Assembly (NCBI RefSeq): GCF_964355755.1
Contig: NC_092678.1
Location: forward strand, 14,348,371-14,412,370
Direction of reading: 5' to 3'
DNA from: Antedon mediterranea
Lineage: Eukaryota; Animalia; Echinodermata
DNA length: 64,000 nt
Shown: positions 678 through 41,031 of the stretch, piece by piece
Layout: every line of letters begins with the position of its first letter
Numbering within the stretch: position 1 is the first letter of the stretch
Notes under the pieces: generated by a model
What the model was told of the DNA's origin: nothing
Databases searched by the model: none
Seen by the model: the letters and a program-made list of their open reading frames with translations, nothing else
Position numbers and translations under genes: made by a program

Positions 678-698
678 ATGTCCACCAGCCAAAAACAG
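678..698 (+). CDS. Candidate first coding exon (MSTSQKQ)
   Basis: acaagATG (A at -3), 7 codons, then cag|gtaaat. The phase-0 donor is compatible with the phase-0 ankyrin exons. Short, so it could be chance. Confidence 0.4.
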
Positions 699-3600
699 GT
701 AAATAAAACATGAAACACTAATATGCTTTCGTGATACATTTATAGCACTGTTCGGAAGTACTCATGATTGACTATCAATCCATTTTGTTCCCAAAAATGT
801 GAAAGATATATACTTTCCCATTAAATTTAATAAATTGAATATCACACGGCCATCCCAATTCCCTAACAAAACTATTGTTCATGTTTAAAAGTATTTATTT
901 AATGTGTCTGTAGTTCTAGTTAAATTGCTTTGCATAAAGCAGCATTGAGAAATATTTAGATTATTATTATAAACAACCACTAAAGTATTTATTCCTGTAC
1001 AAGGTCAGAAATCAAATTTCCCGCAAACTATTTTATAAAATCAGTGACCTATCTAATAGTAAATTGATTGGTTAATACCCAGTCAGTGAGGACCTGATTG
1101 ACAAGCAGTGCCTGTTTGCTATTGGTCATTGGTAAGAGGAAGTTGAAAATGGACAGCAAGTTATTCTTAACACTTGCAGTCTTAAATAAACACGCTGGCA
1201 TTTTTATTACACCACAGAGTATTATTCCTGTCAACTTATACCACAATTGACATGTTGAGGGGATAGGTCATCCACTGATTCAGTGGATGCCAAACGTAAC
1301 GCTAAAGTAGCCTGGTCCGTGTAATGCAGATAGACAAATAGAGTGAGTTGCTGAGTGGTTAAGACAGTGGAACCGTAGCCATAACGTAAGGGTTCGAGGC
1401 TCACTCGCTCCATAGTTCTGGTGGTAGAGAATTGAGTCTTCTGGGATAAGGACGATAAACCGTAGGTCCAGTGTACACATCTAGCTCATGTGCATTTTAA
1501 AGGAAGTAGTGCATATTATTTTTATAAGAGTAGGTGGTTACCCCGTTGTACTACATTCCTAAGCAGCCACAAACTAACTAACGAGGACCCTTCCTTCAAT
1601 AGAACTGGATAGGCCACCCTCATTAATTATGGTGATAAATAAAAATAAATAAAATCCGAACAAAAGAGATGGTAAATGTTATATTTACCATCTAAGATAC
1701 CAACAGAAAAGTTTAGGTTTAGTTCTACGAATTGATCATATATTTTATCAATAGATATCCATGCATGCATAAAAGTAGTTGAAGATGTATTGTCCCCCTG
1801 ACAAATAATTGTTTTACATTCATTCATTTGTTGAATATGTAATTTTAATGTCATGTAATAGTTATTAACTTTGACCAGAATTTGGATCAAAACAAAAAAT
1901 ATTTACCTAAGAAAACTGTAATGTAAAGCAGAACATTGTAAACTTGTCTGCCAGACAATGAATAAAAGTGAAATCATTATTTTCTTTGGTTTTTTTTCTT
2001 ATGTAATAGTTTTATTAAAACTGCAAACTCATCTATTCATAGTCTGAATTTATAGCTCTTTAATTTTCATGATTTTGGGGGCAATACATCTTTAATTAAT
2101 AATATTAATTATTATTATATGGTAGCCAATCACCAAAAATGGTTGTTGCCCATAACGGCCATACATCATTGTACAACCTTGAATCTTTCAACCACCCGAT
2201 TCCTTCCACTGGAATATCTAGCTGTGTGTCAGACAATTTTAATTTAATATGAAACTGCTGTTCTAATTAAATTTGGTATCATATGTTACTTTTACTGTTG
2301 TTATCAATTATTAAAAAGTAGCTGTTTGGTCTGGATGTAATGTGGTTTTCTCACACTATAAGCAGCAAATTTTATCTGATGTTTTTGATATTATGATGAT
2401 ATATTTTCTGTTTTAAATATCGCTAACAATCTAGCTGAAACCACTTTTCAATTATTAGTTGTATCATCATCCTCACCATCTCCCTTTCTAATACATCTCT
2501 TATCACCATTGTTGATCATCTTTTGAACCACTTTCCGATTTGCTGGAACCATTTTAATCAACTGAGCCAATGTAAGATGCAATGCCTCGCGAGCTTATGA
2601 ATACGTTGTAATAAGCCAGCTTTACTCCAATTCTGGTTTTGTAGTTGTTCAAAAGTCTCCTATATTTGGCAAACTCGTCCGCAAATTCAGTTCAACATTA
2701 CCGGTTCCCATTTCCATATAAATGCATGTTTTCAGTTGTTTATTACACAACAGTATTTCATTTCATTATTTTTTCTGTCTATTTCAATATATACATAACA
2801 AATGGTCAACCTAAGTGAACTTAATCACTGTAGCGAAGCCGGTTGACCCAACTCTAAAGTTATTTATAAGACTCATTATATATATCTACAACAGACTGGT
2901 TACGACAAGCAAATACAGCTGGACACCTCTAGCGTTCGTGGTATGGAGATCAAATATCTTAATGGGAAACGAAATAATATACAAATATATTTGTTGAATT
3001 ATCCGCATCGTTTGTTTAATTAAATTGTTTATTGTATGGATAATACGTGTGATTTATACTGCACTTGGGAGAAAGTTGTCTTACGTATGTTTTCATTAGT
3101 ATGTAATAATATATCTTCATAAAGGCGGTTTACGATATAGCAACTACACGGAGAGGTATCTTTCATCGTGTTTAGTTCAAGTGTATAGTTAGGTTGACGT
3201 TCAGAACTATAAGTGTGACAGAAAGCATTGTTTACGTTAACCTGTATAGCATAAACTACACGATTATGATTTCTTTTATGATTCTGTAAAATTACAAAAT
3301 AAGAGACAATTGATATAATTCGGACTACGTTCACAGGATATGGACAAGAAAAACGTTTTATTTACATTTCTTAGTGTGTAATTGTTTATCATTATCTAAC
3401 TATAATTATTTGCTGCAATACACTGTATATATAAACCACATGATTATAATTTCTCTACAGAACGGAAACACCCCGCTGCATGAATACATGCGTTCAAATG
3501 GACCTAAATTAGAAGTAGTAAACTATCTCACGAAGCAAGGTGCATTAGTAGCAGCACTAAATAAGGTAATTATGTCTAGAAATAATTTATATGATTACAC

Positions 3601-6600
3601 CTATAACGTACTTATGATCTGAGCCGCAAACCTATCGTATCCACTTTATTTTATATCATATTACAATTGATTGAGTTAGCCTATTTAGAATTACTTGCTG
3701 CAATACTTATTTAGTAGTAATTAAACAAGATCCTACTATTATTGTTAGATTGATATTTTTTGCAATGAAATTATTAATTGAACTATGTTTTATGTAGACA
3801 TAGTATTATATTGTTGAATTTAGAATCATGACAGAAAGCAATGTTGACATAAATCTGTATGTATAAACTACACGATTATGATTTATTTTATCAGTAACAT
3901 TGCAAAATAAGGGAATGCACAGATAATATTGATATAATTCATTCTACGTTCACAGCAAAACCTTTTATTTCAATTTCTTTGAGTAATATTTATCATTACC
4001 TAACTATAATCATTTGCTGCAATACACTGTATATGTATAAACTTCATGATTATAATTTCTCTACAGAACGGAAACACTCCATTGCATGAATACATGCGTT
4101 CAAATAAACCTACCTTAGAAGTATTAGACTATCTCACGAAGCAAGGTGCATCCGTAACAGCACTAAATAAGGTAATATGGGCTAGAGATAATGTATATGA
4201 TTACACCTATAACGTACGTATGATCTACACCACAAATATATTTTTGCATCATTTTTAGTCGCGTGGACGCAACTCTATGCCGGTCGGTCGGTCGGTCTGT
4301 CTGTCTGTCTGTCTGTCCGGTATCACTATGCGTTTTATCGCTTTTCTGTACTTTTTGAACTGTTTTGATGTAAAGAAAAGATTTAACGTATATTACTTTT
4401 TGAAAGTTCATTTTTTTCTGAGAGCACGCGACTTATGGCTGTTGGCCTTGTTTACCTTTAAACGTAGGAAGGTATTGTACTGTATGTTAATTATTATTAA
4501 TTCTCTTGGTATAAATAATACATTTTAGCGACTTTCGATTTAATTTGATTTAAGAATATTTATTTTTTTTGAATATATATGCTCTACATACACATCTAAT
4601 TGGTAGATATGTTGAACCTACGTTAGGAATAGTGACTTATCTCATTAATTTAATTTGTTATTGTATAATATGATTATATATATAATATTGTATATATATT
4701 ACCTATGAGGTAATAGGGATAGATATAATTTATATACTAGATAAAAAAAATAAGATGGAAATAACACAGATCGAATAAAATATATTGACTTTACTTATTG
4801 TTAGATATCATCTTTTTAAAGGACAATCACCTCTCTTTAGCGACCACTACCCCTTTAATTAAATTAGTGACCACCACTTTTAATGAACCACCACCTCTTG
4901 TAAGCGTCCATCTCTTTTAAAGGATCACCACACGTAAGAAAGGTGGTTGCTTATGATATATGTGTTACATAATAGTTTAAAGGACATTGGAAACCATAAT
5001 CAATTCAAATATACACTTAATAAACACATCTTCTGCATTGCAACTTATGATTTAATTAGGATTTGCTTGTTAATTAAGATTGTTGGTGTATGTTGTTTTT
5101 TTTTATATCGGGAGTCCTTATGGAAACAAGCTCTAGAGCTTATATAGTTGTCATCTTGCTCTCATCCTGTCATTTTATTATATGTATTTGTAATACAGTA
5201 TTGATGAATGAGCAACAAATATTAAACAAACAAACGTTCTGCCATTCCTTATAATTGTATGAGTAAAAAGTATGAGTATTCCTGTATCTGAAGTGTTTGT
5301 GAACACAATATGTCTTATAATATTCATATTGCATCAGCCACAAAACAACAACAATCAATCAAGGTATCAGTTGTGTCTAACAATAAGAATAAGAATCCTT
5401 ATATTTGATGTTTTATGATTTATTCACAGAATGGATACACACCGATAGATATTTATCTGGAGCGTGATGAGGTTAAATTAGAGATATTGTACTGTCTGAT
5501 AACCAATGGAGAATCACCAACATTACCAAAAGAGGTAATTTGACAACAATTTTAAATTGCAATAGTATGGCATACTGGTAATAGTACAGTATGCTTAATG
5601 ATAATTATTATGTTTTGCTTTGTTTTTTACCTTGAAACTTAAGAAGGTATTGTACTATATTATGTTAATTATTATTAACATGATGGAACTTCTCTTGGTA
5701 TAAATAATACATTTTAGCGACTTTCGATTAATTTGATTTAAAAATATCTATTTATTAAAAATATAATATTTTAAATTTTTTTTAGGATGGAAGCAATGCT
5801 CTACATATACATCTAAGTGGTAGATATGTTAAACCTACGTTAGGAATAGTGACTAATCTCATTAAACTTGGTGTATCTCAAACATTACAGAATAAGGTAA
5901 AGTACATAAGAGTGGTTATTATATTCCCGTGATCTAACATTGTGTAATTATCGTGTGGGACACAAACACACCTCAGATCACGAGTGTGGTGTTGTTCATA
6001 ACTCTATACCTGCACAAGAGTGGTTACAGCAAGCAAATACAGTTGGACACCACTAACGTTCGTGGTACCGAGATTAAATCTCTAAATAGGAAAAGAAAAT
6101 ATATATTTTTGTAATTATCCGCATCCTTTGTTTAATTTAATTTGTTATTGTATAAAATAAGTACGTGTGATTTGTAATGAACTTGAGAGAAAAGTCTTCA
6201 ATATTATGTAATAATATATCTTCATATCACATAGCATGAGGTAATATGGATAGAGATAATTTATATGCTAGGTAAAAAAAAATAAATAAGATGGAAATAA
6301 CACAGATCAATTAAAATATATTGACTTTACTTCTTGATAGATATCATCTTTGTAAAGGACCATCACCTCTCTTAATGGGCCACTACCCTTTAATTAATTT
6401 AGTGACCACCACTTTTAAAGAACCCCAACCTCTCTTGTAAGCGTCCATTACATTTAAAGGATCACCACACGTAAGAATGGTGGTTGCTTACGATATATGT
6501 GTCACATAATAGTTTAAAGGACATTAGAAACCATAATCAATTCAAATATACACTTAAACACATCTTCTGCATTGCAACTTATGATTTAATTAGGATTTGC

Positions 6601-9600
6601 TTGTTAATTATAGATTGTTGGTGTATGTTGTTTTTTTATGTCGGGAGTCCTTATGGAAACAAGCTCTAGAGCTTATAGAGTTATCATCTTGCTCTCATCC
6701 TGTCATTTTATTATATGTATTTGTAATACTGTATTTATGAATGAGCAACAAATATAAAACAAACAAACGTTCTGCCATTCCTTATAATTGTATGAGTAAA
6801 AAAGCATGAGTATTCCTGTATCTGAAGTGTTTGTAAACACAATATTTCTTATAATATTCATATTGCATCAGCCACAAACAACAACAATCAATTATGTTAT
6901 CAGTTGTGTCTAACAATAAGAATAAGAATCCTTATATTTTATGTTTATGATTTATTCACAGAATGGATACACACCGATAAATATTTATCTGGAGCGTGAT
7001 GATGTTAAATTAGAGATATTGTACTGTCTGATAACCAATGGTGAATCACCAGCATTACCAAAAGAGGTAATTTGACAAAAATGTTAAATTGCAATAGTAT
7101 GGCATACTGGTAATAGTACAGTATGCTTAATGATAATTATTATGTTTTGCTTTGTTTTTTACCTTGAAACTTAAGAAGGTATTGTACTATATGTTAGTTA
7201 TTATTAACATGATGCAACTTCTCTTGGTATAAATAATACATTTTAGCGACTTTAAAAATATTTATTTATTAAAAATATAACATTTTTTTTATTTTTTTAG
7301 GAAGGAAGCAATGCTCTACATATACATCTAAGTGGTAGATATGTTAAACCTACGTTAGAAATAGTAACTAATCTCATTAAACTTGGTGTATCTCCAACAT
7401 TACAGAATAAGGTAAAGTACATAAGAGTAAGCATATATTCACGTGATCTAACATTGTGTAATTATGGGATGGGACTCAAACACACCTCAGATCACGAGTA
7501 TGGTGTTGTTCATAACTCAGCTCTATACCTGAACAAGTGTGGTTACAGCAATCAAATACAGTTGGACACCACTAACGTTCGTGGTACCGAAATTAAATCT
7601 CTAAATAGGAAATGAAAATATATATTTTTTTTAATTATCCGCATCCTTTGTTTAATTTAAATTGTTATTGTATAAAATAAGTACGTGTGATTTATAATGA
7701 ACTTGAGAGAAAAGTGCCTTACGTACGTCTTCAATATTATGTAATAATAATATATCTTCATATCACATAGCATGAGGTAATAGGGATAGAGATAATTTAT
7801 ATACTAGATAAAAAAATAAATAAGATGGAAATAACACAGATCAATTAAAATATATATTAATTAATTTAGTGACCACCACTTTTAAAGAACTACCACCTAT
7901 TGTAAGCGTCCATCTCTTTTAAAGGATCACCACACGTATGAAAGGTGGTTGCTTACGATATATATTATGTGACACATATTGTGTCACATAATAGTTTAAA
8001 GGACATTGGAAACCATAATCAATTCAAGTATACACTTAAACATATCTTCTGCATTGCAACTTATGATTTAATTAGGATTTGCTTGTTAATTAAGATTGTT
8101 GGTGTATGTTGTTTTTTTATGTCGGGAGTCCTTATGGAAACAAGCTCTACAGCTTATAGAGTTATCATCTTGCTCTCATCCTGTCATTTTATTATATGTA
8201 TTTGTAATACAGTATTGATGAATGAGCAACAGATATAAAACAAACAAACGTTTTGCCATTCCTTATAATTGTATAAGTAAAAAGTATGAGTGTTCCTGTA
8301 TCTGAAGTGTTTTGTAAACACAAAATGTCTTATAATATTCATATTGCATCAGCCGCAAAACAACAACAGTCAATTATGTTATCAGTTGTGTCTAACAATA
8401 AGAATAAGAATCATTATATTTGATGTTTTATGATTTATTCACAGTATGGATACACACCGATAAATATTTATCTGGAGCGTGATGATGTTAAATTAGAGAT
8501 ATTGTACTGTCTGATAACCAATGGTGAATCACCAGCATTACCAAAAGAGGTAATTTGACAACAATTTTAAATTGCAATAGTATGGCATACTGGTAATAGT
8601 ATGCTTAAAATAATGATAATTATTATTTTTGCTTCGTTTTTTTACCTTCAAACTTAAGAAGGTATTGTACTATATGTTAATTATTAAAAACATGAGGCAA
8701 CTTCTCTTGGTATAAATAATACATTTTAGCGACTTTCGATTAATTTGATTTAAAAATATTTATTTATTAAAAATATAACATTTTTTTTTTTTTAGGAAGG
8801 AAGCAATGCTCTACATATACATCTAAGTGGTAGATATGTTAAACCTACGTTAGGAATAGTGACTAATCTCATTAAACTTGGTGTATCTCCAACATTACAG
8901 AATAAGGTAAAGTACATAAGAGTGGGCATATATTCCCGTGATCTAACATTATGTAATTATCAGGTGGCACTCAAACACACCTCAGATCACGAATGTGATG
9001 TTGTTCATAACTCTATACCTGCACAAGAGTGGTTACAGCAACCAAATACAGTTGGACAACACTAGCGTTCGTGGTACCGAGATTAAATCTATAAATAGGA
9101 AATGAAAATATATAAATTTGTAATTATCCGCATCCTTTGCTTAATTTAATTTTGTATTTTATAAAAAAAGTACGTATGATTTATAATGAACTTGAGAGAA
9201 AAGTGGCCTACGTAAGTAAAGTCGAAACATAAGCTAATGCTAATGGCCTTGGTACCCATCTCCATTTCCTTAGCGTTTGGGCCAGGCTCCACTAAGTGTG
9301 TATGTGTGCGTGGGTACGGACGCCACTCCTCCCGCACACACGAGTCTGATTTACCTTCCCAGTACTTTTAACATACCGGTACCAATTTCTATCACCTGGG
9401 TGGGGAGGAACAATGTGGATAGAGAATCTTGCTCAAGGACTCAACACCGCAGTGGCCGGGCCGGGCTTGAACCGGCAACCTCTTGATTGCAAGTCCAATG
9501 CTCTAACCACTGCGCCACACAGTGCTCCACTAAGTGCTGCCTTACATACGTCTTCATTATTATGTAATATTACATCTTCATATCACATAGCATAAGGTAA

Positions 9601-24600: not shown

Positions 24601-27600
24601 CTCTATTCGGTTGGTTTATTACCAACATCGAACTAGCGTGCGATGTATATTTTTACATGAATTACGTGTACATAATGTAGGTGATGATGAAAACGTACAC
24701 AAAGAACTTCTGGTGAATACTTCCATGGCCAACATTATTAATTAATATCGTTTACAAACGACAACGAGATGGTACAAATATGGCCATCACAAGCTTGGAA
24801 CAAGGAACGTTTTTGTTTAGTAGCGAAATTGTACTTAATAAGACAGATGGAAATGTGCCGGGAACATTATCCCAGCTAGAAATTAGATTTCTGCATCGTT
24901 CTAAACAAAGAAAAGCGCACAAGCTTTTAGTAGAAAAAGAGTACCAGAAGGACGTCTGTATGTTGCACCAAAAGACGTTAAGTAAAAGTTATATTGTAAT
25001 AATATGTTCTGAAGTTTGCAATATTTTTATCAGCTGGCAGCTGCAGCAGCTCTAAAAAAATCCACAGCCAAAACATCTGCCTCATAAGAAGCAATATAAT
25101 AAATTAAACAGATGAAAATAACTTTTAAAAACTATAATGCCATATAATTTTGTTTAGAATTGTAATAAAAAAACATATTTTCATCCATGTTTCGGTATTA
25201 CAATTAATATCAATGCCAAACAATTAGAAAACAGTATTATAATGACACATCACTGTACATTAACAGGATGGTTTCATTGAGCTCGGTGATTCTTTAAATC
25301 CCGTTTACAGTATGTACATCTGTTATGCGCATAATCCTAAATATTAACGTCATATATGGTATCAGTATTGTGAACTTGCAAATCGAGAAGCCCTAATTAT
25401 AATGAAGTTACAAATAAAATAGGCAAATAATAGCTAAATCAAAACGATAAAATAAAGTAAAACAACCAGAAAGAAATTGTGAAGTACAAGTGAGAGTAGT
25501 TGGAGAGAAGTAATATACAGTAAGTTTAAGCATATGTATATATGTATAAAGGTTAACAGAGTAAAAATCAGAAAGTAACAAAAAAAGTAGAAAACGGAAA
25601 TTTAATGTATGAAAATGAAATGTGAACGAAATATGTATGAAATATTGAATGAATAAAGGTGGTGGTTAACCACAAAAGAGAAACAAACCAGTTTAAGCAT
25701 GAGCTACCTGAGTGGATGCAATCGTTGTGCCATAATAGTAAAATATTTATTACCAACGGTTTAACTTGAGCTTTCTTATTTTTCTGTACCATATTTATAA
25801 ACGTTAATTTTAAATCGAAGCATATTAGAACCTGTAATAAGGTAGTAGAGTATACATTTATAACTATCATTGTATAGGTTATTGGTAATTAACAAAATGA
25901 TATAGCCTATTATTCATATTTACTAATTTTAATTCTGTATTATAGGCTTCTAGAATTGGCACTGAATGTGGAATTTCTGAAGAAGCGATCATCCTTGCCA
26001 TAACGTATATGAATGACATTGGAAAGATTATGTATTCCAATAAAGACGAGAAATTAAAGAACACAGTAATAACTAATCTTCACACGATGATTCAGATGTT
26101 AACAACTGTGATCACAGTATTCCCACCAACTATCAAAGATGTATGTTAGAAAATTATATTAATACTAGAAATGCGATCAGATTAATTATGAACACAGGCC
26201 TACAGATATCCTCAAAAAAATATTTTAAGCGGCGGATCCAACCTACTTAAAGATAGAGGGGCAGTTGTTTGATCCACTGGAAAAGAGAGTAATTTTGACA
26301 ATTAATTTGTTATGGTAAAATTTTACAAACTAGATGGCACGCTCGCTTCGCTCGCGTACCATCTAGGTCGTGCCCACAGATGGTTCTCGAATACACAGTA
26401 TTTCCAGCGAGAAAAAAATGGAGATTTCAAATGTACGTACCGCAGGACTATAATACATTGTCGTTTACAGAAACGAATAAATATACACAATGATTTATGT
26501 AGTCAACCAAAATTAGCACCCTGAGAATTACTTCCGAGAGAGAAACAAAATGAGTCAAATTTTTTTATTTGGACTCATTTAAACAAACCCAATTTGTGTT
26601 TTGTATGTAACATTAAGGGTTGAGGGATGGGGGAAGAAGATAGGTACAAAGAGGAAACATTTTAAAATATATTCTTATCCACTCAGTAACGAAATATTGT
26701 TTTTAATGTTTTATAGGCCTATAAATAATATACCACTAAATACAGTAAAACATTTACGATTTAATACGGTACTTTGTTAAAACTCTCACTGTCATAGTCG
26801 ATTGAAATAGTAAAGTACATGTAACGATACACCACTACGACGTTTATATATTTTTAAATTATTAATTAATACAAACGTTGAGAAGCAACTGTCAGTAATA
26901 ACGTTTATTTATTTGTATATTATATATTTATAATCTAACAGTAGGGCCTACCCACACTCACAGTAATAACGTTTATTTGTATATATTTTCATATTACATC
27001 TAACAGTACCAACACTCACAGTAAGAAATTTGCGATTCAAATTGCGATCAAAAGTGGTTAATACCTTAACAGTATTGTACAGCATTGCAATACTATTTAT
27101 GTTTATTCTCCAAGGGGGCCCATAAATCTAAATCTATACCTGTATGGTTAAACCAAATAATTTGGAATGTTCCATTCATCACAAATCAATACATTTGTAA
27201 AAACGTATATTAAATGTATCAAAATAGTATTTTTTAAAGAAAATCGGCCTGTCTTCAACATTATGATGCTGTACTCGAACTGTTCAACCGGTTTTCAGCT
27301 ATTAAAAACAATTATCGTAGGAGGAGATAGGAAAATGCGAAGCCTCCTCGCATTTTTGTGGCGGGTATTTTTCAAGATGGACATCCATTAGACAGTGTAT
27401 ACCACGATCGGAAAACACCCCTATTTGGGGCAAATCGTTGAACCTAAATTCGTTTTAATCGTCAATAACTAATTATCTAACTTAATTTAATTAGTAAACA
27501 GGGTTACATCAGGTGGTTAAAATCAGTACCGAAAGTACGAACCAACTTTATATACCATCGAGTAAAAATTCTAGAAGTAAGGAGCGATTTACCGAATTTT

Positions 27601-30600
27601 GCCCTTACGTAAATTTATATATAGATGAACATTTAGGGTGCGATTCTGTTCTATCATTTGTATCTGAAAAATATGTCGTGAAAGCAGAAAAGTGAAACTA
27701 TCTAAACTACCCTAGATTGGTATTTTGTACAATCCTGGTCTTTCGTTAATAAGTTAATGTAGATGTAATCAGTATTACTGCGATTTTAAGTGAAAATGCT
27801 CTTTAAAATGGTTACTTTTATTTGAGTACAGAGGGAAATGAAAGATCGATGGGAAAGACTTGGAGTTGAAGGTATTCTTGAGGAAAAGTTATTGCGTTAT
27901 TTATGGCAACATCGAGACGAAGGTAATTTTGACATCTTTATAGAAGTGATGAGGGTGTTCCGGTTACTCTTTGAGAAGAAAACGGTATGTACGAAGCTTA
28001 TTTATTACATTGATTAATTGCTTAAATCTTTTAAAAATCTCTGGCTTAACCAATAAACTGAACTATTTTATCCTCGTATCAATATTTCTTAAAAAGCAAA
28101 CACTGTTTATAATAACAGAAAGAAGAAGGTAACCGTGAATTCTTGGTGCCATGTCGGATGACAGTTGATAATGAGACTAGCCTAGAAGTCACAAAAGATG
28201 ACAGGCAAAGGGTATCAATTTATCTTACCCCGACAGACTTTCTTCCCGATGCGGTGTACCACACTTTGGTTGTTGCATTTCTTGAATTGATGACTGAAAC
28301 AGGTAGTGTTGATCAAAAAGTGTTCCGGAATCGTAGTGATTTTGAATTTAAAGATTACACAGTCAGTCTAGGTGCCGTAAAAATAAATCGTAAAAAGGAA
28401 AAGCCATATGCAATAAAGGTATGAAACTATTTTAATGTTTATTACAAGTTCTTTACATTTCCTGATATTACCTCCACCAGGTTTTTAACCCTGTATGTGT
28501 GTGTATGAAAGGCGTAGACACCACAGTTTTATCCGAATATCACCTTTGACACAATGATCTATGACCCAAAAACTCGATTCGGTATTGACGGGGTAGAATC
28601 AGAGACAAAGGTCACAATATATATACCGCCTCAACATTAAGACACACAAATATTTTTAGAAAATTCCAATTTAGGCTTATAATAATGTACAGTAATGAAA
28701 GAAATGTTCAATATAATATCCACATCTAAATTCCAGAAAACAGATTATCAAGCAATGTATACACTTTATTAAAAATAATCATTATTAAAAAAAAGACTAC
28801 TGGAAAGAGGTGGTTTTTTTTTTTCCTAATCTAATTTATTTGAAATTTTCCTATAGCTTGAAATATATCGTCGGACAATCGATCGATATTGCACAGAAAC
28901 TGATGGAACCAAACCAAATGTTGTATCTGAACTACGGCAACTAAAACCCGATGTCTGCTTTGAGGTATTCAATATGATGATATAACACTGTCAAATAAAA
29001 TATACTTTTCACATTATAATGTACCTGTAATATATATTTAAATAAATACAATATGGCACTTCCCTGTTATAGGTACTAAGCTACTTAAAGGACCAACTTG
29101 AAACTGTCTGCAACATATACGAGGGCAGTGGTTACAATCTACGTGTGGTATGTGATGCATGTGATCCAAAGAATCATCACTTAGTTGATCTTGAAAAGTG
29201 TTTGAAGAATGATTCGGTTCCATGTGGACGTCATTCTGCAATGAGTACTGCTCATATCAAACGCCTTTTTTTGAAAGGTAAGTTGTTTCTTCTTCTTCAA
29301 GCTTATCAGTGTTATTTCATCGTATTTAAATGTTCATCAACATTAATAATTATTATAAAAAAACAAACACATTATTCTACGCAACAATACTCTTTTTAAA
29401 TTTGATTCCATACCGTATCCAACCAAGTCCTAACAGAAACGTTAGGAATCATTGCAGATTTACCAGTATTAGCATTGTGTATTCAATTTGTATCTAGTTT
29501 GTGATTTTTAGTCGCGTGGAAGCGACTCTATAGTTCACTATGTCGGTTGGTCGGTATGTTGGTCTGTCGGTCTGTCGGTCTGTCTGTTGGTCCGGTATCA
29601 CTATGCGTTTTATCGCTTTCTGACCTTATCTTGATATCAGTTTAATCTAGCTAGCTAAGTCAATTTGTAACAGTATATTCATTATGGCCAGGAATCGATG
29701 TGGTTATGTTTTCACGGTGCGCAATCAAAAATTACGCGGTCTACACACGATTTAACGAAATCACGTTTGTAATCATATCTTCACAACCATGAATCACAAT
29801 TAAATAAAATTTGGTAGTCATAAACTCCAGGGCATAAATCATCATATGGCAATACAATTACCTGCGTAGCGCATGTAACGCATGCGTACGTGCGCTTACA
29901 ATTTTCAAAATTTATTTTCGATGAAATAAGAGTACGTTTCAGGCAATTTTAAGCGTTTACAAAATTGCCATGAGTGCGCATATTTTTGCGCGCGCACTGC
30001 ACGTTAAATGTTATTGCGCACTCTTTTTGCCCGATTTCTTTTTTCTTGACTTACTTTTCAACTCGAAATTACGTTATACGAGCACGTCAAAAGTGACAGG
30101 CTACGCACGTGTAAATTAAAAAAATATAACTGTTTTAAAACATTTCAACATTTTTAAACATGTTCAGTAATTTTGTTCAGTTGGTAGGTTGGTCGGTCGG
30201 TCGGTAAACACTCAGCACGCGACTGCAGCCATCTATATGGCCTTGTTTTAAATCGTTTAAGTTAATTAATAATACAAACGATATATGATTGTTGTAATTG
30301 GTTTTATGGATATACTGAAAATTGTATAGATATTGTATTAATGTTTCGTTTTATATTCTTGTATTGATAATATTTAAGTGTGTATCAAGTTGTTTTGTTA
30401 TGTAATGCAATTGTTCTTATACTGTATGCATTCAATAATCCACTAACATTAAACACTTTTTTTTAAGAATCGGAGACAGAAGCAGACCGGGCAAAGCAGC
30501 TTGTTCCCGAGACAAAGCCAAAGTCAACGCTAAGCTTGGTACCTAGGAAAAATGAAGAGCTTGAGCCAGTGCTAGAGGTAGTACAAGTACGTGTGTCATC

Positions 30601-33600
30601 ACCAGGACATCAAGGTAACTATAATAGTAATTGTTATGACTAGCAGAAAGTATACATACACTTTTGAAAGCACACCTTATTGGTGTAATATAGGCCTAAT
30701 GTGTGAGGATTCTAATCGCTTGGTTGATTGAAATATCACAGTTGTCTATTAATACGATATGGCTGTAGATGTGCTTCTGAGGAAGTGTCGTGTCTGAGCT
30801 CTTCTGAAACTTGGGCCATATCGGCTTCTGTTCATTAGCATTACTTAATCTCTGCGCTTAACTATTGGTTCTAAGTTTATCCAGGTACTTTTGGAGGGAG
30901 TGATCGATGGTATCTGGGGGTTACAATGACGAATTTGCCCTGTAAAATGCTTAAAAAGAGACGATCTCTATTAGTTTTACAATAGCAAAGTTCATAGGTC
31001 AGATAAACTTGTTTCTTTGGGGAACTAATTAAGCCTACAATTATCATTAAAATATCTGGTCAATTTCTTCACTGGACGAGAAAACATAATTTCTATGTTT
31101 TTTTCTTAAAACAAATGACAATAAATGATACTTGACTTGACACTGCCAGCAGGCAAAGAGGGGAGATTTTAAAACTTAAAATGATATACTGTTCACAACT
31201 TTACAATCTCAAACTATTGGCACTGGCTAAGAGATGGAAGAAAGCCCAAACAGACAAACCAAAGCATGAAGAAGAAGATGAAGACGACCAATGAATCATC
31301 AAACATATCATAATGTTCACAAATAAATGCGAATTAATATACACCAAAATAAAATACTTTGTTTATGAATCAGAGTCAGAAGCTATCGAGGCGAATCAGC
31401 TAGTGCCAGTTACAGAGACAAAGGCAGAATCAGAGCCAGGCTCAGTACCTCGGACATACATTAATGTAGCCATTTTGTTTTATTTGGAGTACTATGTACC
31501 ATTATAATGATGAAAGCAGAAATATTTGTAAATGGATGTTTATGATTTTGTTATGGCAGTAAGCCAAACTATATTTCTTTTGATAACTGAGATAACAATT
31601 CAAATTGAATTTCTGATAATAAGAAGGTACAATTATTACATATAAAACTTTGTTTTTGCAGAAAACCAAAAAGTAAATAAAATGACAGACTTGAATGAGC
31701 ATTTCAAAGACTTAAAAGCTAATCTTAGTAAACATTATGCTGGTGATCACTATCGTTTGGTAAAACTATGCTTATACGATCACTTGCCCTTGGGAGACTT
31801 TGAAGGGCGTGGCTTAACAGCACACAATTTGTTTAATAAACTCCAGGCAAAAGGTTATATCGAACCTTCTAATGTCAAGTTACTCATGGAGATCGCAAAA
31901 CTGACAGAATTTAAGGTTGCTGAAATTCTTGTACTCGAGTATGTTAAGGATAACAATATTAAACAAACTCAAATTAATATAAAACCAATGTCGCCATATC
32001 GAAAACGGTTGTTTGATGCATTACAACAAGTTGAAGGAGACAGTTTATCAAATGTTATTGCTTACTACAACCTTGAACATTTTGGATTAAAAAATATCTG
32101 GGATGTAGTTTTCAAATTAGAGAGTAACGAAGAATTGAAAGATGAACCAGGCAAAATAGAGAAATTTGCAAGTCTTCTTAATGAACGTGCTAAGAAGCTA
32201 CTACTTGATAGAGGTAATATAATTAATATATTCGTTCACTTACAAGTACCAATCATTTTCAATAATTGGGATAAACATTATGCTAAAATGTGTATTCTAG
32301 TACAATTTCAACAAGTTTTTTTACCAGCGAAGCTCGTTTGATAAGGCGCTGACATTAGTATTATTTAGTCAAGTTAGGATACCTAAAATTGTGGTTTCAG
32401 ATCATTATGATAATCATAATGTAACACAAAGAATCTGGAATTTATAATTTGTTTGGAAATATGAGGCATCCAGTTCAAATCAAAGTATATCATATTTATT
32501 ATGGTTTTGGTTATGGATTAAGTGAATATTAATTAAAAGTTTCAACTATCTTAGCCTAATTATTCACTGTCACACAGAACAAGAACAATTGTGATACGTA
32601 TGTTGTTTACAACATTGCGTACAAATAATGAACACAATTTGATCACTTTTAGGAAATTGCGACGAAAGCGAAGGCGCACCACTGAGTCGCCCAAGTGAAG
32701 GTAAATAACCAATAGATAAAGATAATAATGATATTAGGTATTGTCATGATGTGTTTAAATATATTTTGTTATTTTGACACAGTCTATTTTAAGTCAATAC
32801 TAACTAAATACATAATCTATGAATATTCTTCTCTCTTTTAAGAAACTATTCAATAATGTTTGATAAAAAAAAAAGTTGTCTTAAATTAAAACATTTAAGG
32901 ATTTTGGTTCTTAATTAGAAAATAGGTAAAAAGTTGACTTCATACTGTGACCAGACGACGGAGGGTTTTAAAACCTAAAATGACATACTTTTTTAAAACG
33001 TTACAATGTCAGCAATGTATCGTAATGTTAACAAATGCGAATTAATAAACATCAAATAAAATATTGTTTTAAGAATCAGAGTCAGGAGCTAACCAGACGA
33101 ATCAGCTATTGCCGGTTACAGAGACAAAGCCAAAGTCAAAGCCAGACTCAGTACCTCGGGCAAATGAAGACCATGAGCCAATGCCAGGGGTAGCACCAGT
33201 ACATGTGCCATCTACAGGACATCAATGTAACTATAATAGTATTATTTATGACTAATAATAATAGTAATATGTATGACTAGCAGAAGTTTTAAATATTCTT
33301 TTGATAACACACCTTTATAGTTTGTAAACCAATATGTTATTTATTTCTATTTCTTTCTGTTTTGTTGCATTTTGTTAACAATCACATTTTTTTTCACTTT
33401 AGTGTTTTACATTTTTAATTAAAGATTGTTTGTTTAAATTTATAAAATAACATAATCTTTTATTTTCCACAATTCAATAACTAAGATAACAATACTTCCC
33501 AAAGCATAGTAACTCTAATTGGCTTTGTCTGCTAGTAATTACAACAGACCTACAATCTAGATGTTTTTAATGACCATATGTTTTATAATATCATTTTATA

Positions 33601-35054
33601 AGTGTGTTTTTTTTACGTTTGAGTTAATTTTACTATTGGGGCTCTATACGTTTTAAAGATTATTTCGTTTTAAAAAACCGATAATTTCTAACGTTTTTTT
33701 GTGTTAATTTTTACGTTTTGCGCGCGTTTATTTTACGTGTTGCGTTGCGGCACTACGTACTCTCACCTTATAAATATAACTATTGTTTTATTAATGGGTC
33801 TCTACATGTTTTAAAGCTTATTTTGTAAGAAAAATGTTTTACGAATTGAGTTATTATGTTAGAGTGTTTTTTTGATATTTTTACTTTTGGATTGATTTTA
33901 CGATTTATAAATATGTATTGTTTTTGTGATATTGATTTTTGACAATGTGAATTGTATTTGTTGCAGGTGTTGTTGGAGCATCAAGTTCATATCCAGGTAT
34001 GTTATATTTGTGTTGGTAATGTTTTAGATTAAGTGGTTATTAATTAAAATGCACAAGTAACCTCACTGTCACCTATGGATAGAACAGAGAACTGGAAATG
34101 GGAGTGTTTTTTACGAATAACAATTGATAACATTCTGTGCCATGTTTAATAAATTCATATAAAGTAACGTCTCATCGTGATACTTTTAGGCAATAGTGAT
34201 GAAAATGAAGGCGCATCATCGAGTCACCGATTTCATCCAAGTGAAGGTAACTTACTAGTAGACCAAGACTACAATGCAATAATTATGGTCATGATAATGA
34301 ATAACACGATAACAAATAATTTTTAATAATCATGACACTGTTACTCATAAAGTTAGAGTCCTATAAATCTATTCAAAATAATATAATGTTCACTATAAAG
34401 TGTACATTATGAGTGTACATTATGATATGTGTTTCATTACTTAATAATATAATCATAATCTTAAAGCAAGTGACAACAGTGATTATATTCATGTTACCAT
34501 TCTACATTATTGATTACATAATATTGTAAACATTACTTTTCTTCAACCATGTAGATCTTTCGGACGATGAGTTTAAACAGTTAATTACAAAGTTTGCACA
34601 ATGGTATGATGAACGTGGACTCCTTAACAGACTAAAAGTTCTGTTCAAAGAAATGCTAGGCGATTTTGAAGCGGTGAATAGAGTTACCAGTACAATGGAA
34701 CTGTTAGCACTATTAACTGATTCTGGGCTGTTGAGTCGACACAATATGGCTGTACTGTATGACACAATACATATAACTAAACAAAATGGCTTTGTGGACA
34801 TGGTTAAAAATAAGCTTCCATTCATTCAAGGTTTTGAGACCCAAACTATATTGTCATTTTCACCACATACCATAAATCTGTTTAACCTGGGAAAAAGTCT
34901 CAGTGACTCAGATGTGAAAACTCTTGATGGACGATACAACTTCCCTACCCTAAAGATGTATGCAGATAATTGGAGTTTGATTTTGGATTTTGAAAAACGA
35001 GGTTTGTTGAGTGAAGACAACATTGAATTGGTCAAAAAGAATGTGGAAAGTTAA
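678..35054 (+). CDS. Multi-exon Roco-family gene: ANK x14 - ROC - COR - tandem DED-like - tandem DED-like; no kinase or LRR (about 1660 aa)
   Basis: Manual splicing, all GT-AG with consistent phases and no internal stops: (678-698?), 3461-3565, 4067-4171, 5430-5534, 5786-5896, 6962-7066, 7301-7411, 8445-8549, 8796-8906, 10494-10598, 10981-11085, 11565-11669, 12053-12157, 12647-12751, 12953-13057, 14866-14950, 15102-15267, 15407-15507, 15861-15923, 16661-16767, 21075-21164, 21255-21452, 23624-23869, 25946-26140, 27832-27984, 28119-28418, 28857-28964, 29073-29277, 30468-30614, 31662-32213, 32653-32700, 33074-33226, 33967-33996, 34190-34246, 34555-35054 (TAA). ROC motifs: GKEGAGKT, STDGI, WDYAGQ, VATHMD. 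Confidence 0.85.
1340..1628 (+). mobile_element. tRNA-derived SINE with Deu/Nin-type central domain
   Basis: A-box-like ttgctgagtggtt and B-box ggttcgaggct, followed by gataaggacgataaaccgtaggtcc...gtgcattttaaag...aagagtaggtggttaccccg, which resembles the Deu domain from memory. Confidence 0.7.
1783..2091. mobile_element. Kolobok-type MITE (TTAA-flanked)
   Basis: Left end ttga|agatgtattgtcccc and right end gggggcaatacatct|ttaa are inverted repeats. A homologous left end occurs at 22600 (ttaa|agatatattgtcccc). Confidence 0.55.
3461..3565 (+). CDS. Ankyrin exon type A (A1), 35 aa, phase 0-0
   Basis: ctacag|NGNTPLHEYMRSNGPKLEVVNYLTKQGALVAALNK|gtaatt. Confidence 0.85.
4067..4171 (+). CDS. Ankyrin exon type A (A2)
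   Basis: ctacag|NGNTPLHEYMRSNKPTLEVLDYLTKQGASVTALNK|gtaata. Confidence 0.85.
4252..4453 (+). mobile_element. Helentron-associated non-autonomous element (HINE/DINE-1-like), short copy
   Basis: ttttt-agtcgcgtg ... (gtcg/gtct)n microsatellite ... cacgcgact sub-terminal inverted repeat ... ggccttgttt. Same family at 29505 and 39610. Confidence 0.7.
4572..4648 (+). pseudogene. Decayed, truncated type-B ankyrin exon
   Basis: gctctacatacacatctaattggtagatatgttgaacctacgttaggaatagtgacttatctcatta matches the B exons. The AG acceptor and the 3' end with its donor are missing. Confidence 0.75.
5430..5534 (+). CDS. Ankyrin exon type C (C1), 35 aa
   Basis: cacag|NGYTPIDIYLERDEVKLEILYCLITNGESPTLPKE|gtaatt. 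Confidence 0.8.
5786..5896 (+). CDS. Ankyrin exon type B (B1), 37 aa
   Basis: tttag|DGSNALHIHLSGRYVKPTLGIVTNLIKLGVSQTLQNK|gtaaag. Confidence 0.8.
6962..7066 (+). CDS. Ankyrin exon type C (C2)
   Basis: Near-identical to C1; intact AG/GT; 105 nt. Confidence 0.8.
7301..7411 (+). CDS. Ankyrin exon type B (B2)
   Basis: Near-identical to B1; intact AG/GT; 111 nt. Confidence 0.8.
8445..8549 (+). CDS. Ankyrin exon type C (C3)
   Basis: YGYTPINIYLERDDVKLEILYCLITNGESPALPKE; intact AG/GT. Confidence 0.8.
8796..8906 (+). CDS. Ankyrin exon type B (B3)
   Basis: EGSNALHIHLSGRYVKPTLGIVTNLIKLGVSPTLQNK; intact AG/GT. Confidence 0.8.
9213..9530 (-). mobile_element. tRNA-derived SINE with CORE/Meta-like central domain
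   Basis: The minus strand reads gtggcgcagtggttagagc (A box) ... ggttcaagcc (B box) ... gtccttgagcaag ... ccacccaggtg. It is absent from the paralogous intron positions near 6190 and 7715. Confidence 0.8.
9925..10024 (+). pseudogene. Dead type-A ankyrin pseudo-exon (A3)
   Basis: Acceptor is attg instead of atag, a 5-nt deletion leaves 100 nt, and the donor is gc. Confidence 0.8.
10494..10598 (+). CDS. Ankyrin exon type A (A4)
   Basis: ttgaaag|DGNTPLHECMRSNEPILEVVDYLTKQGASVTALNK|gtaaaa. Confidence 0.75.
10981..11085 (+). CDS. Ankyrin exon type A (A5)
   Basis: ctatag|DRNTPLHGYMRSNKPTLEVVNYLTMKGASITALNK|gtaata. Confidence 0.8.
11565..11669 (+). CDS. Ankyrin exon type A (A6)
   Basis: ttgaaag|DGNTPLHEYMRSNKPSLDVVDYLTKQGASVTALNK|gtaata. 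Confidence 0.75.
12053..12157 (+). CDS. Ankyrin exon type A (A7)
   Basis: ctatag|DGNTPLHEYMRSNKPTLEVVNYLKKQGASITAQNK|gtgata. Confidence 0.8.
12647..12751 (+). CDS. Ankyrin exon type A (A8)
   Basis: ttgaaag|DENTLLHELMRSNEPTLKVVNYLRKQGASVTALNK|gtaata. Confidence 0.7.
12953..13057 (+). CDS. Ankyrin exon type A (A9)
   Basis: ctatag|DGNTPLHEYMRSNKPTLEIVYCLTKKGASITALNK|gtaata. Confidence 0.8.
14866..14950 (+). CDS. Ankyrin C-cap/linker exon (phase 0-1)
   Basis: tatag|EGKTAVSVLEENTEIEQTEKIKIVEHFD-a|gtaagc. Confidence 0.8.
15102..15267 (+). CDS. ROC exon with PPEI..G helix and P-loop (G1)
   Basis: LLVPPEIFARGKQAIKIYKNELKDG...RCMFLGKEGAGKTSCVKAML. The pre-ROC PPE(I/V)xxxG motif and GxxxxGKT are both present. 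Confidence 0.92.
15407..15507 (+). CDS. ROC exon, switch I (G2)
   Basis: FNPEEPSTDGIVTRTVF...W; phase 2-1. Confidence 0.9.
15861..15923 (+). CDS. ROC insert exon
   Basis: tacag|DAELTRKMREHVIKQRIDKEL|gtatgt; phase 1-1. Confidence 0.75.
16017..16186. repeat. ~170-bp imperfect palindrome (foldback), probably a non-autonomous element
   Basis: acaaataatgaatgtt..gtgtaatg..aatggcat..tgaa..tgaaaag [centre gaggcaacgccgag] cttttca..ttca..atgccatt..cattacac..aacattcattatttgt. Confidence 0.6.
16661..16767 (+). CDS. ROC exon, switch II (G3)
   Basis: ...ITSIWDYAGQLDYYITHR, the ROC WDxAGQxxYYxTH signature. Confidence 0.92.
16832..16926. repeat. Degenerate (TAG/TGG)n trinucleotide tract
   Basis: gtagtagtagtgatagtgatagtaatggtggtggt... 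Confidence 0.7.
17530..20955 (+). mobile_element. CR1/L2-group (Crack-like) LINE, nearly full ORF2 (APE + RT) with stops and frameshifts, inside a ROC intron
   Basis: APE motifs IHFNSRS, LLDNIISN, SDHLPVF. RT motifs KSPGID, QYGFR, FIDLSKAFDT, GVPQGSLLGPLLF, YADDT, KFLGV. T-rich 3'UTR with aataaa near 20935. Confidence 0.93.
21075..21164 (+). CDS. ROC exon
   Basis: ttcag|FFLTNTASYCVAFNALDNLDEPANARDPAN|gtaagt; continues TH-x-FFL. Confidence 0.88.
21255..21452 (+). CDS. ROC exon with G4
   Basis: TNLDMNLFWIRSVY...PPISLVATHMDKL. Confidence 0.9.
21850..22595 (+). mobile_element. Heavily decayed LINE RT fragment
   Basis: GVFLELNKAFD (22152), QGSILGPL (about 22331), FAGDT (22410); many frameshifts. 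Confidence 0.75.
23624..23869 (+). CDS. ROC end / COR start exon
   Basis: MYMVDN...IKKLKRNI...EVPINWLNFQERL, the COR VPxxW motif. Confidence 0.88.
25946..26140 (+). CDS. COR exon
   Basis: ASRIGTECGI...AITYMNDIGKIMY...LKNTVITN...LTTVIT; fits the COR LxYLxxxGxIxY and VI.dp.w pattern. Confidence 0.88.
27832..27984 (+). CDS. COR exon
   Basis: WERLGVEGILEEKLLRYLW...FIEVMRVFRLLF. Confidence 0.85.
28119..28418 (+). CDS. COR exon
   Basis: EFLVPCRM...DFLPDAVYHTLVV; 300 nt, phase 0-0. Confidence 0.85.
28857..28964 (+). CDS. COR exon
   Basis: ctatag|LEIYRRTIDRYC...LKPDVCFE|gtattc. Confidence 0.8.
29073..29277 (+). CDS. COR C-terminal exon with Cys/His cluster
   Basis: VLSYLKDQLETVC...VVCDACDPKNHHLVDLEKCLKNDSVPCGRH...; phase 0-1. 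Confidence 0.83.
29505..30249 (+). mobile_element. HINE/DINE-1-like Helentron derivative, long copy
   Basis: ttttt-agtcgcgtg, a (gtcg/gtct) tract, cacgcgact, the terminal hairpin gccat-ctat-atggc, then cttgtttt. Confidence 0.75.
30468..30614 (+). CDS. Low-complexity linker exon L1 (phase 1-1)
   Basis: ttaag|ESETEADRAKQLVPETKPKS...SSPGHQ-g|gtaact. Confidence 0.72.
31368..31455 (+). pseudogene. Truncated dead copy of the linker exon
   Basis: ESESEAIEANQLVPVTETKAESEPGSVPR; the acceptor is tg and the 3' half is missing. Confidence 0.7.
31662..32213 (+). CDS. Tandem death-effector-domain-like exon 1 (phase 1-1)
   Basis: FKDLKANLS...VKLCLYDHLP...NLFNKLQAKGYIEPSNVKLLMEI (DED-like LFxxLxxxGxIxxxNxxLL), followed by SPYRKRLF...NIWDVVFKLE (second helical death-fold unit). 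Confidence 0.75.
32653..32700 (+). CDS. 48-nt linker micro-exon (phase 1-1)
   Basis: tttag|GNCDESEGAPLSRPSE-g|gtaaat; paralogous to 34190-34246. Confidence 0.7.
33074..33226 (+). CDS. Linker exon L2 (paralog of L1)
   Basis: ttaag|ESESGANQTNQLLPVTETKPKS...TGHQ-t|gtaact; the donor is weak. Confidence 0.62.
33967..33996 (+). CDS. 30-nt micro-exon (phase 1-1)
   Basis: ttgcag|gt-VVGASSSYP-g|gtatgt; conserved with its splice sites in the copy at 63167-63196. Confidence 0.7.
34190..34246 (+). CDS. 57-nt linker micro-exon (phase 1-1)
   Basis: tttag|GNSDENEGASSSHRFHPSE-g|gtaact. Confidence 0.7.
34555..35054 (+). CDS. Terminal exon: second tandem DED-like module
   Basis: DEFKQLITKFAQWY...RLKVLFKE...MELLALLTDSGLLSRHNMAVL, then FSPHTINLFNLGKSLSDSDVKTL...WSLILDFEKRGLLSEDNIELV; stop TAA. 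Confidence 0.75.
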
Positions 35055-40439: not shown

Positions 40440-40618
40440 GACAAAGGTACAGGCACAACACCAAAACAAATATGTTTACAGAAAAATTGTCGACAAATGG
40501 AACGCACTACCACAACATGTTATAGACAGTACCACTATAAATAATTTCAAATATATGACAAACACGTTAGAGAGGAGGCAGTCAATACGATTATTAACTC
40601 ACTTGCCTCCTGATTCAC
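40440..40618 (+). mobile_element. 3' end of a CR1-type LINE
   Basis: KIVDKWNALPQHVIDSTTINNFK (CR1 ORF2 C-terminal WNxLP), then the hairpin ggaggca...tgcctcc. Confidence 0.7.
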
Positions 40619-41031
40619 TTAAAGGTAAGAACTCTTAAAGGTAAGAACTCTTAAAGGTAAGAACTCTTAAAGGTAAGAACTCTTAAAGGTAAGAACTCTT
40701 AAAGGTAAGAACTCTTAAAGGTAAGAACTCTTAAATGTAAGAACTCTTAAAGGTAAGAACTCCTAAAGGTAAGAACTCTTAAAGGTAAGAACTCTTAAAG
40801 GTAAGAACTCTTAAAGGTAAGAACTCTTAAGGTAAGAACTCTTAAAGGTAAGAACTCTTAAAGGTAAGAACTCTTAAGGTAAGAACTCTTAAAGGTAAGA
40901 ACTCTTAAAGGTAAGAACTCTTAAAGGTAAGAACTCTTAAAGGTAAGAACTCTTAAAGGTAAGCACTCTTAACGGTAAGCACTCTTAAAGGCAAGAACTC
41001 TTAAATGCAAGAACTCTTAAAGGTAAGAACT
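40619..41031 (+). repeat. Minisatellite, about 26 x 16 bp (TTAAAGGTAAGAACTC)
   Basis: Direct reading. Two units are 15 nt and a few substitutions occur; there are no spacers. Confidence 0.95.

What the first reader, a model, noticed from the sequence alone, without database searches (positions are those of the whole stretch)
678..35054. Kinase-less ANK-ROC-COR-(DED)2-(DED)2 Roco protein: candidate NLR-analogous sensor/switch/death-effector receptor
Seen: 34 exons splice in one open frame, giving ankyrin repeats, complete ROC G1-G4 motifs, COR and two C-terminal helical modules. Established: the well-known animal Rocos are LRRK1/2, DAPK1 (kinase-ANK-ROC-COR-DD) and MFHAS1 (LRR-ROC-COR), and tandem DEDs recruit FADD/caspase-8-type proteins. 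Inference: repeat sensor, NTPase switch and death-fold effector is the NLR logic, here with a ROC-COR GTPase in place of NACHT and four putative DEDs. I do not know this architecture as a characterised family, though invertebrate Roco expansions with death folds exist. The DED calls rest on motif recognition by eye.
Basis: partly seen in the sequence, partly recalled or inferred. Interest (0 to 1): 0.88.

Follow-up and report, generated by a model that had tools for sequence, protein, structure and literature searches.

The report
Feather-star Roco GTPase with four DEDs
A feather-star gene of 35 exons joins 14 ankyrin repeats, an LRRK2-type ROC-COR GTPase without a kinase and two tandem death-effector-domain modules of a kind also found on crinoid NLRs and caspases, so it likely acts as an intracellular immune or cell-death receptor, although no function has been tested.

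Summary
The gene is real. Thirty-five exons (678-35054, +), all GT-AG, give 1,670 aa: 14 ankyrin repeats (one per exon), ROC with G1-G4, COR, linkers and two tandem-DED modules. Module 2 folds like the caspase-8 tandem DED (pLDDT 93, Z 15.9); module 1 is its full-length homolog (HHalign 99.3%). Spliced contigs of this gene or a close paralog support 30614>31662 and 34246>34555; 29277>30468 and the 5' end are not shown. It belongs to a crinoid Roco expansion (28 of 30 hits Antedon or Anneissia) with variable tails (tDED, HEPN, Death, second ROC-COR). The same tDED type sits on NACHT proteins (23 of 145), TIR, RIG-I, Rel, GVIN and caspase-8-like proteins, and module 2 groups with NLR modules, not with most Roco ones (AU p=0.004). 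That supports NLR-like wiring, but it is not an NLR and function is untested. The theme is known: Trichoplax TPR-Roc-COR-Death (also noted earlier in this scan), brown-algal exon-shuffled ROCOs, and sponge COR-DED-caspase and Ankyrin-ROC-COR-Death in a published supplement. I found no description of the crinoid family. New variant of a known kind.

The parts
678..698 (+). Putative exon 1 (ATG, 7 codons, phase 0); unverified, the true 5' end may lie upstream
   Evidence: donor 98th percentile; no N-cap homolog found
3461..13057 (+). Array of 14 ankyrin exons, one repeat each, phase 0-0. Type A 3461-3565, 4067-4171, 10494-10598, 10981-11085, 11565-11669, 12053-12157, 12647-12751, 12953-13057; type B 5430-5534, 6962-7066, 8445-8549; type C 5786-5896, 7301-7411, 8796-8906. 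Duplicated together with flanking intron DNA
4570..4646 (+). Inactivated type C ankyrin exon relic (partial, no acceptor); boundaries approximate
9925..10024 (+). Inactivated type A ankyrin exon (no AG acceptor, short deletion, GC donor)
13449..13478 (+). Truncated ankyrin exon relic with an in-frame stop
14866..14950 (+). Exon 16, C-terminal cap of the ankyrin array
15102..23869 (+). ROC GTPase, exons 15102-15267 (G1 GKEGAGKT), 15407-15507 (G2 region), 15861-15923, 16661-16767 (G3 WDYAG), 21075-21164, 21255-21452 (G4 THMD), 23624-23869 (end of ROC, start of COR)
25946..29277 (+). COR, exons 25946-26140, 27832-27984, 28119-28418, 28857-28964, 29073-29277
30468..30614 (+). Exon 29, Pro/Glu-rich linker, phase 1-1
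   Evidence: spliced to 31662 in X1
31367..31453 (+). Linker-exon relic without canonical acceptor; paralog model P0002 carries a matching segment
31662..32213 (+). Exon 30, tandem-DED module 1 (DED1+DED2), phase 1-1
32653..34246 (+). Linker exons 32653-32700, 33074-33226, 33967-33996, 34190-34246, all phase 1-1
34555..35054 (+). Exon 35, tandem-DED module 2 (DED3 + DED4 lacking its last helix) and stop codon

Best explanation
The gene encodes a kinase-less ANK14-ROC-COR-tDED-tDED Roco protein of an expanded crinoid family, which likely works as an intracellular immune or cell-death receptor: the ankyrin array would sense a ligand, the ROC-COR nucleotide cycle would switch the protein, and the tandem DEDs would recruit tDED-bearing caspase-8-like, TIR or Rel proteins. 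Shown: exon structure, domains, tDED fold of module 2, family expansion, variable tails, tDED sharing with NLRs and caspases. Inferred: ligand binding, GTPase activity, partner binding and outcome. Because a bacterial Roco is dimeric when empty or GDP-bound and monomeric on GTP, the state that clusters or releases the DEDs need not mirror an NLR.
For: Module 2 matches the caspase-8/cFLIP tandem DED (Foldseek E 2.4e-4, TM 0.75; Z 15.9, rmsd 2.6, 156 aligned). Among 145 proteins carrying this module: NACHT 23, Roc or COR-A 17, TIR 4, caspase 2, RIG-I 1, Rel 1. P0035 is named caspase-8-like, P0133 cFLIP-like and P0064 DDX58 in Anneissia japonica. Module 2 sits with P0012, P0019, a HEPN protein and two NACHT proteins (6 rows, 99/96); one clade of Roco modules is rejected (AU p=0.004). 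Module 1's best full-length hit is the N-terminus of a GVIN GTPase (59%). Family tails include HEPN and Death. ANK regions are 33-49% identical to 4 paralogs against 65-68% for ROC. A sponge APGTPase+COR+DED+TRADD-N+caspase fusion is listed in the PMC8195603 supplement. Repeat-per-exon layout with dead copies parallels brown-algal ROCOs (PMC3341825 section 15).
Against: No functional, challenge or tissue data. Pooled pN/pS among the 8 type A ankyrin exons is 0.64, so no sign of diversifying selection within the gene. FL-equivalent positions are LC, AY, VL, GR, and RxDL occurs in 4 of 190 modules, so the vertebrate chain interface is not conserved. DED4 is truncated. No Roco among the proteins I fetched has COR followed by module 1 then module 2. 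All tail exons are phase 1-1, so shorter isoforms are possible. The species of the two nearest NLRs (P0027, P0030) was not looked up.
Confidence: 0.55

Rival explanations
1. Decoy or brake: the protein binds the shared tDED network like cFLIP or vFLIP and caps or sequesters NLR/caspase assemblies under GTP control.
For: No catalytic effector; DED4 truncated and its FL-equivalent is GR; module 2 is of the NLR-type.
Against: The caspase-8-like P0035 also lacks FL in its second DEDs (HQ, TR), so the loss is family-wide. A variable repeat head fits a receptor better than a brake (inference).
Confidence: 0.15
2. Recent chimeric duplicate in a birth-and-death cluster: the four-DED form is a minor or non-functional product, and working forms carry one module.
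For: Dead ankyrin and linker exons, a broken LINE in intron 20 and a downstream partial copy at 61247-63198. The closest relatives carry one module each (P0003, P0012, P0019). X1 contigs differ by 2-10% from the window, so may come from a paralog.
Against: No stop or frameshift over 35 exons with canonical sites. X1 splices module 1 onward into linker exons and reaches module 2 from exon 34. The module 1-module 2 order recurs in 11 other proteins, one an NLR.
Confidence: 0.17
3. Non-immune apoptotic or trafficking scaffold (development, autotomy, regeneration), closer in role to DAPK1 or LRRK.
For: Characterised animal Rocos act in cell death, autophagy and trafficking (PMC4104024 and PMC6337361 passages).
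Against: Multi-copy lineage expansion, fast-changing head and tails shared with NLR, RIG-I, TIR and GVIN proteins are typical of conflict genes.
Confidence: 0.13

Closest known systems
Trichoplax ROCO expansion (Civiero et al. 2014, PMC4104024; passages read)
   Same: Multi-copy animal ROC-COR genes (at least 17) with TPR/LRR repeats and CARD or death domains
   Different: Here ankyrin exons and tandem DEDs; crinoid clade; modules shared with NLRs and caspases
Sponge and coral architectures in Kaur et al. 2021, PMC8195603, Figure 4 source data (rows seen): XP_019855546.1 APGTPase+COR+DED+TRADD-N+caspase; XP_019861208.1 DED+TRADD-N+Ankyrin+APGTPase+COR+Death; Acropora XP_015757179.1 with COR+Death+Death
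   Same: Kinase-less ROC-COR with death folds, one with ankyrins, one with DED and caspase
   Different: Single rows with TRADD-N; no tandem-DED pairs listed; no crinoid Roco among the 11 APGTPase rows seen (file cut when stored)
Brown-algal LRR-ROCO candidates (Zambounis et al., PMC3341825, abstract and section 15; PMC11378527, passages and section 10)
   Same: One repeat per exon, dead intronic copies, variable repeat number, proposed immune receptors
   Different: LRR not ankyrin; mostly no effector domain; inverted copies and diversifying selection reported there, not seen here
Prokaryotic LRR-AP-GTPase-COR-effector conflict systems (PMC8195603 main text)
   Same: Repeat sensor, Roc-COR switch, variable C-terminal effector
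   Different: Bacterial, LRR head, enzymatic effectors
DAPK1 (kinase-ANK-ROC-COR-DD); LRRK1/2; MFHAS1
   Same: ROC-COR core; ANK before ROC and a death fold after COR in DAPK1
   Different: No kinase or LRR; DED pairs instead of DD; multi-copy
Animal NLRs (NACHT+LRR; PMC3879445 passages)
   Same: Tripartite logic; same tDED type as NACHT proteins found here
   Different: No NACHT or LRR; effector is C-terminal and sensor N-terminal
RefSeq Antedon mediterranea XP_071964198.1 and XP_071964214.1 (P0006, P0008)
   Same: ANK-Roc-COR-tDED, 63-67% identical in ROC and COR; unnamed ('uncharacterized')
   Different: One tDED module of another subtype (31-35% to module 2)

Membership tests
Roco (ROC-COR) | ROC G-domain with G1-G4 motifs | tested here: met
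   GKEGAGKT, PSTDG, WDYAG, THMD in the chain, conserved in 4 paralogs; paralog P0163 hits solved Roco structures 4wnr, 3dpu, 6hlu (E 2e-8 to 4e-7) and LRRK2 ROC
Roco (ROC-COR) | COR directly after ROC | tested here: met
   COR-A/COR-B hits on single exons below cut-off; paralogs pass the COR-A cut-off at 54-65% identity
Roco (ROC-COR) | GTP binding, hydrolysis, dimer cycle | not testable with these tools
   needs biochemistry
LRRK1/2, DAPK1 | Protein kinase domain | tested here: not met
   None in the chain; one kinase probe finds nothing in the window at E<=0.05. An exon upstream of the window cannot be excluded
NLR | NACHT domain plus LRRs | tested here: not met
   NACHT probe finds nothing; the chain is accounted for by ANK, ROC, COR, linkers and tDEDs
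Tandem DED (caspase-8/cFLIP type) | Two packed DED folds, module 2 | tested here: met
   pLDDT 93, pTM 0.89; TM 0.75; Z 15.9; last helix absent
Tandem DED (caspase-8/cFLIP type) | Two packed DED folds, module 1 | tested here: met
   By homology: HHalign to module 2 99.3%, E 1e-20, 160 columns; Atlas DED 0.92. Its own single-sequence model was too poor to decide
Tandem DED (caspase-8/cFLIP type) | Exposed FL motif in the second DED; RxDL motif (RxDL recalled) | tested here: not met
   AY and GR at the equivalent positions; RxDL in 4 of 190 modules. The mapping rests on weak alignments to FADD and cFLIP
Tandem DED (caspase-8/cFLIP type) | Homotypic binding to DED partners | not tested
Exon-shuffled ROCO receptors (Ectocarpus type) | One repeat per symmetric exon with inactivated intronic copies | tested here: met
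   14 phase 0-0 exons and 3 relics
Exon-shuffled ROCO receptors (Ectocarpus type) | Diversifying selection on repeats | tested here: inconclusive
   pooled pN/pS 0.64 over 8 exons, no site model

The most novel reading that the evidence does not exclude
Crinoids run much of their intracellular immunity on one portable tandem-DED adaptor: NLRs, RIG-I, GVIN, TIR, Rel and caspase-8-like proteins all carry it, and an expanded class of ankyrin-Roco GTPases forms a second receptor system on the same network. These genes vary their sensor by duplicating and skipping ankyrin exon cassettes and swap effector cassettes with NLR genes. This would be a GTPase-switched death-effector signalosome in an animal.
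Probability: 0.3. Interest if true: 0.8.

Novelty: new variant of a known kind. Interest (0 to 1): 0.58.

Why it matters
Roco proteins have been proposed as NLR-like receptors in algae, bacteria and placozoans, without a clear downstream pathway. Here the Roco tail is of the same module type as that on NLRs and caspase-8-like proteins of the same animal group, which names candidate partners and makes the idea testable: GTP state against DED clustering against caspase activation. It also gives a kinase-free animal system for asking what the LRRK2/DAPK1 ROC-COR switch does on its own.

Tried and rejected
No whole genome is held, so paralogs could not be counted in the window's own assembly. No RNA holder was listed as such; X1 is only guessed to be RNA, which its GT..AG joints support, while X2 runs through introns. 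The first read-laying was swamped by repeats, and the ANK array was never laid. The single-sequence fold of module 1 had pLDDT 55.5: Foldseek's top 10 were all tandem DEDs but at E 0.3-1.9, and the wide structural search listed no DED among 50 rows, best Z 5.8; inconclusive. Single-sequence searches of both modules against solved structures gave no DED; profile searches gave only E 0.02-1. One search was circular (alignment A2 held module 2 sequences) and was replaced. The Atlas recognition value for module 2 (2246) is under the 2300 guide. Acceptor percentiles had an off-by-one error; corrected (25 of 34 at or above the 90th percentile; exon 35 acceptor only 47th; matrix inflated by duplicated ANK introns). 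The AU test (p 6e-35) included long branches; I rely, which dropped P0145, P0075, P0115, P0152, P0029, four of five P0010 repeats and unlabelled rows, and whose group was named. An N-cap profile from 3 paralogs found nothing. The wide structural search for module 2 and the complex prediction of module 2 with caspase-8-like P0035 were not available. Paper searches that found no description of the crinoid family. Figure 2 of PMC11378527 (about forty animal architectures) is not held as text and may list ANK-ROC-COR-DED; subscription reviews of the Roco family were not searchable.

Full report
Observation. Reading bases 1-36000 and testing splice sites gave a 35-exon chain on the + strand from ATG 678 to TAA 35054: 5,013 nt, 1,670 aa, no internal stop, 34 of 34 introns GT-AG. 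Exons 2-15 each encode one ankyrin repeat in phase 0-0; 14 of 14 score 18-54 bits on a paralog-built profile against a best shuffle of 5.3. ROC shows GKEGAGKT, PSTDG, WDYAG and THMD; COR follows. The ROC-COR part aligns without junction gaps to four RefSeq models of Antedon mediterranea (65-68% in ROC, 54-65% in COR). Probes for kinase, caspase, NACHT, HEPN, ZU5, Death and GVIN found nothing in the window at E<=0.05. The nearest named proteins are A. mediterranea (93-99% over part of module 1), so the source is most likely an Antedon feather star; none of them is this gene.

The DED calls. Pfam gave DED below cut-off for both modules (E 0.01; 5e-6 with two stretches). With a 54-sequence alignment, module 2 folded at pLDDT 93, pTM 0.89. 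All 27 Foldseek rows shown were caspase-8, cFLIP or viral FLIP tandem DEDs (best E 2.4e-4, TM 0.75). The second look gave Z 15.9, rmsd 2.6, 156 residues aligned to chain residues 2-166 of 179, so DED4 lacks the last helix. Module 1's own model was poor, but its profile aligns with module 2 over 160 columns at 99.3%, E 1e-20, half to half. Four DEDs are therefore supported, the last one truncated. The FL-equivalent positions are LC, AY, VL, GR, and RxDL occurs in 4 of 190 modules. The FL motif of the second DED drives caspase-8 chains (PMC3477315 passages), so the crinoid interface is not the vertebrate one; this holds for the caspase-8-like P0035 too.

Expression. No run was on record as RNA. 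Contigs of run X1 join 30614>31662 and 34246>34555 at GT..AG, and one 1,047-nt contig runs exon 29, exon 30, an exon 31-like piece, exon 32. It differs from the window by 10 of 559 letters in exon 30 and about 10% in the linkers, so it is an allele or a close paralog. It carries 149 further letters upstream that I could not see, so 29277>30468 is not shown; predicted paralog models do link COR to a linker and a tDED (P0003, P0012, P0019, P0006-P0008). Exon 1 and the use of all ANK exons are unverified.

Family. A ROC-COR search with paralog P0008 gave 30 hits of 6,579 candidates, 28 from A. mediterranea (11) or Anneissia japonica (17). Tails vary: tDED, HEPN (3), Death (1), a second ROC-COR, ZU5, none. 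In a COR tree of 42 rows the gene lies in an 18-row clade (100/100) whose members end in module 1, module 2, both or neither. All tail exons here are phase 1-1, which permits cassette gain, loss and skipping. The ANK array grew by duplication of exon plus intron, with three dead copies. ANK regions are 33-49% identical to paralogs, but pooled pN/pS among 8 type A exons is 0.64.

A shared effector module. Module 2 found 147 representatives at E<=0.001. Of the 145 new ones, Pfam at E<=1e-4 gave NACHT in 23, Roc or COR-A in 17, TIR in 4, caspase in 2, RIG-I in 1, Rel in 1 and DED in at least 67. The 20 I chose to look up were all Antedon or Anneissia, including a caspase-8-like, a cFLIP-like and a DDX58 protein. 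The module 1-module 2 order recurs in 11 other proteins, one of them an Antedon NACHT protein, none a Roco. Module 2 is 46% identical to NACHT proteins P0027 and P0030 (species not looked up) but 31-35% to P0006 and P0008. It groups with them (6 rows, 99/96), and one clade of 12 Roco modules is rejected (AU p=0.004, 65 rows, long branches removed, group named after a first tree). P0097, a near neighbour by COR, carries the other subtype. Module 1 is sister to the N-terminal module of a GVIN GTPase (0.96; partial modules of P0002 and P0003 left out). Effector cassettes have thus most likely moved between Roco, NLR and GVIN genes; the direction was not tested.

Mechanism. Most likely (0.55) a sensor-switch-adaptor receptor: ankyrins bind a foreign or guarded protein (inferred), ROC-COR changes state with nucleotide (inferred from intact motifs), and the tDEDs recruit tDED-bearing caspase, TIR or Rel proteins (inferred from module sharing and from a sponge COR-DED-TRADD-N-caspase fusion). 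Chlorobium Roco is dimeric when empty or GDP-bound and monomeric on GTP (PMC5714945 abstract), so the active state may differ from NLR oligomers. Rivals: a recent chimera whose four-DED form is minor (0.17), a cFLIP-like brake (0.15), a non-immune scaffold (0.13).

Known versus new. It is a Roco; it is not an LRRK, DAPK or NLR. The logic is in print: at least 17 Trichoplax ROCOs with CARD/death domains and TPR/LRR (PMC4104024 passages; lead from this scan's notes), exon-shuffled algal ROCOs (PMC3341825 abstract and section 15; PMC11378527 passages, section 10 and one supplement), bacterial LRR-AP-GTPase-COR-effector systems (PMC8195603 passages), sponge and coral ROC-COR-death-fold rows in its supplement, and ROCO-TIR/Death genes in Aplysia (PMC9334734 passages). 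ANK-ROC-COR-tDED models are deposited in RefSeq as uncharacterized. Seven paper searches found no description of the crinoid family or of its tDED sharing with NLRs; an unseen figure in PMC11378527 may list the architecture. Verdict: real gene, new variant of a known kind, interest 0.58.

Noticed in passing
window 61247-63198 (+): Partial second copy of the gene's 3' linker region: copy of exon 32 split by a ~940-bp element with terminal inverted repeats (61889-62052 / 62668-62826), then a copy of exon 33 at about 63168-63197. No ANK, ROC, COR or tDED exons lie between 35054 and 64000; it may continue past the window.
   Followed up: partly
window ~17600-20560 (+), intron 20: Frameshifted LINE-type retrotransposon inside the ROC region (RVT_1 E 3e-36).
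   Followed up: partly
window 46798-52400 (-): Large intronless ORFs (262, 1,147 and 207 aa), the last with a CXC domain (Pfam TCR E 8e-6); looks like a DNA transposon. The two longer ORFs had no Pfam hit.
   Followed up: partly
window 2108-2659 (-): Short coding-like fragments in shifting frames within putative intron 1; no Pfam hit.
   Followed up: partly
window 40618-41031: Tandem repeat of about 64-bp period, 95% identical.
   Followed up: no
window 56378-57900 (+) and 58926-60221 (-): Two more broken LINE remnants (endonuclease hit E 9e-8 for the second).
   Followed up: partly
proteins P0064, P0052, P0001, P0035: Crinoid RIG-I-like helicase, Rel protein and GVIN GTPase start with a tandem-DED module; the Anneissia caspase-8-like protein has two modules (four DEDs).
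   Followed up: partly
proteins P0004, P0115, P0005: Other Antedon Roco layouts: ANK-ROC-COR-ROC-COR; TAZ-KIX-ROC-COR-tDED; COR-tDED-ZU5-tDED.
   Followed up: no
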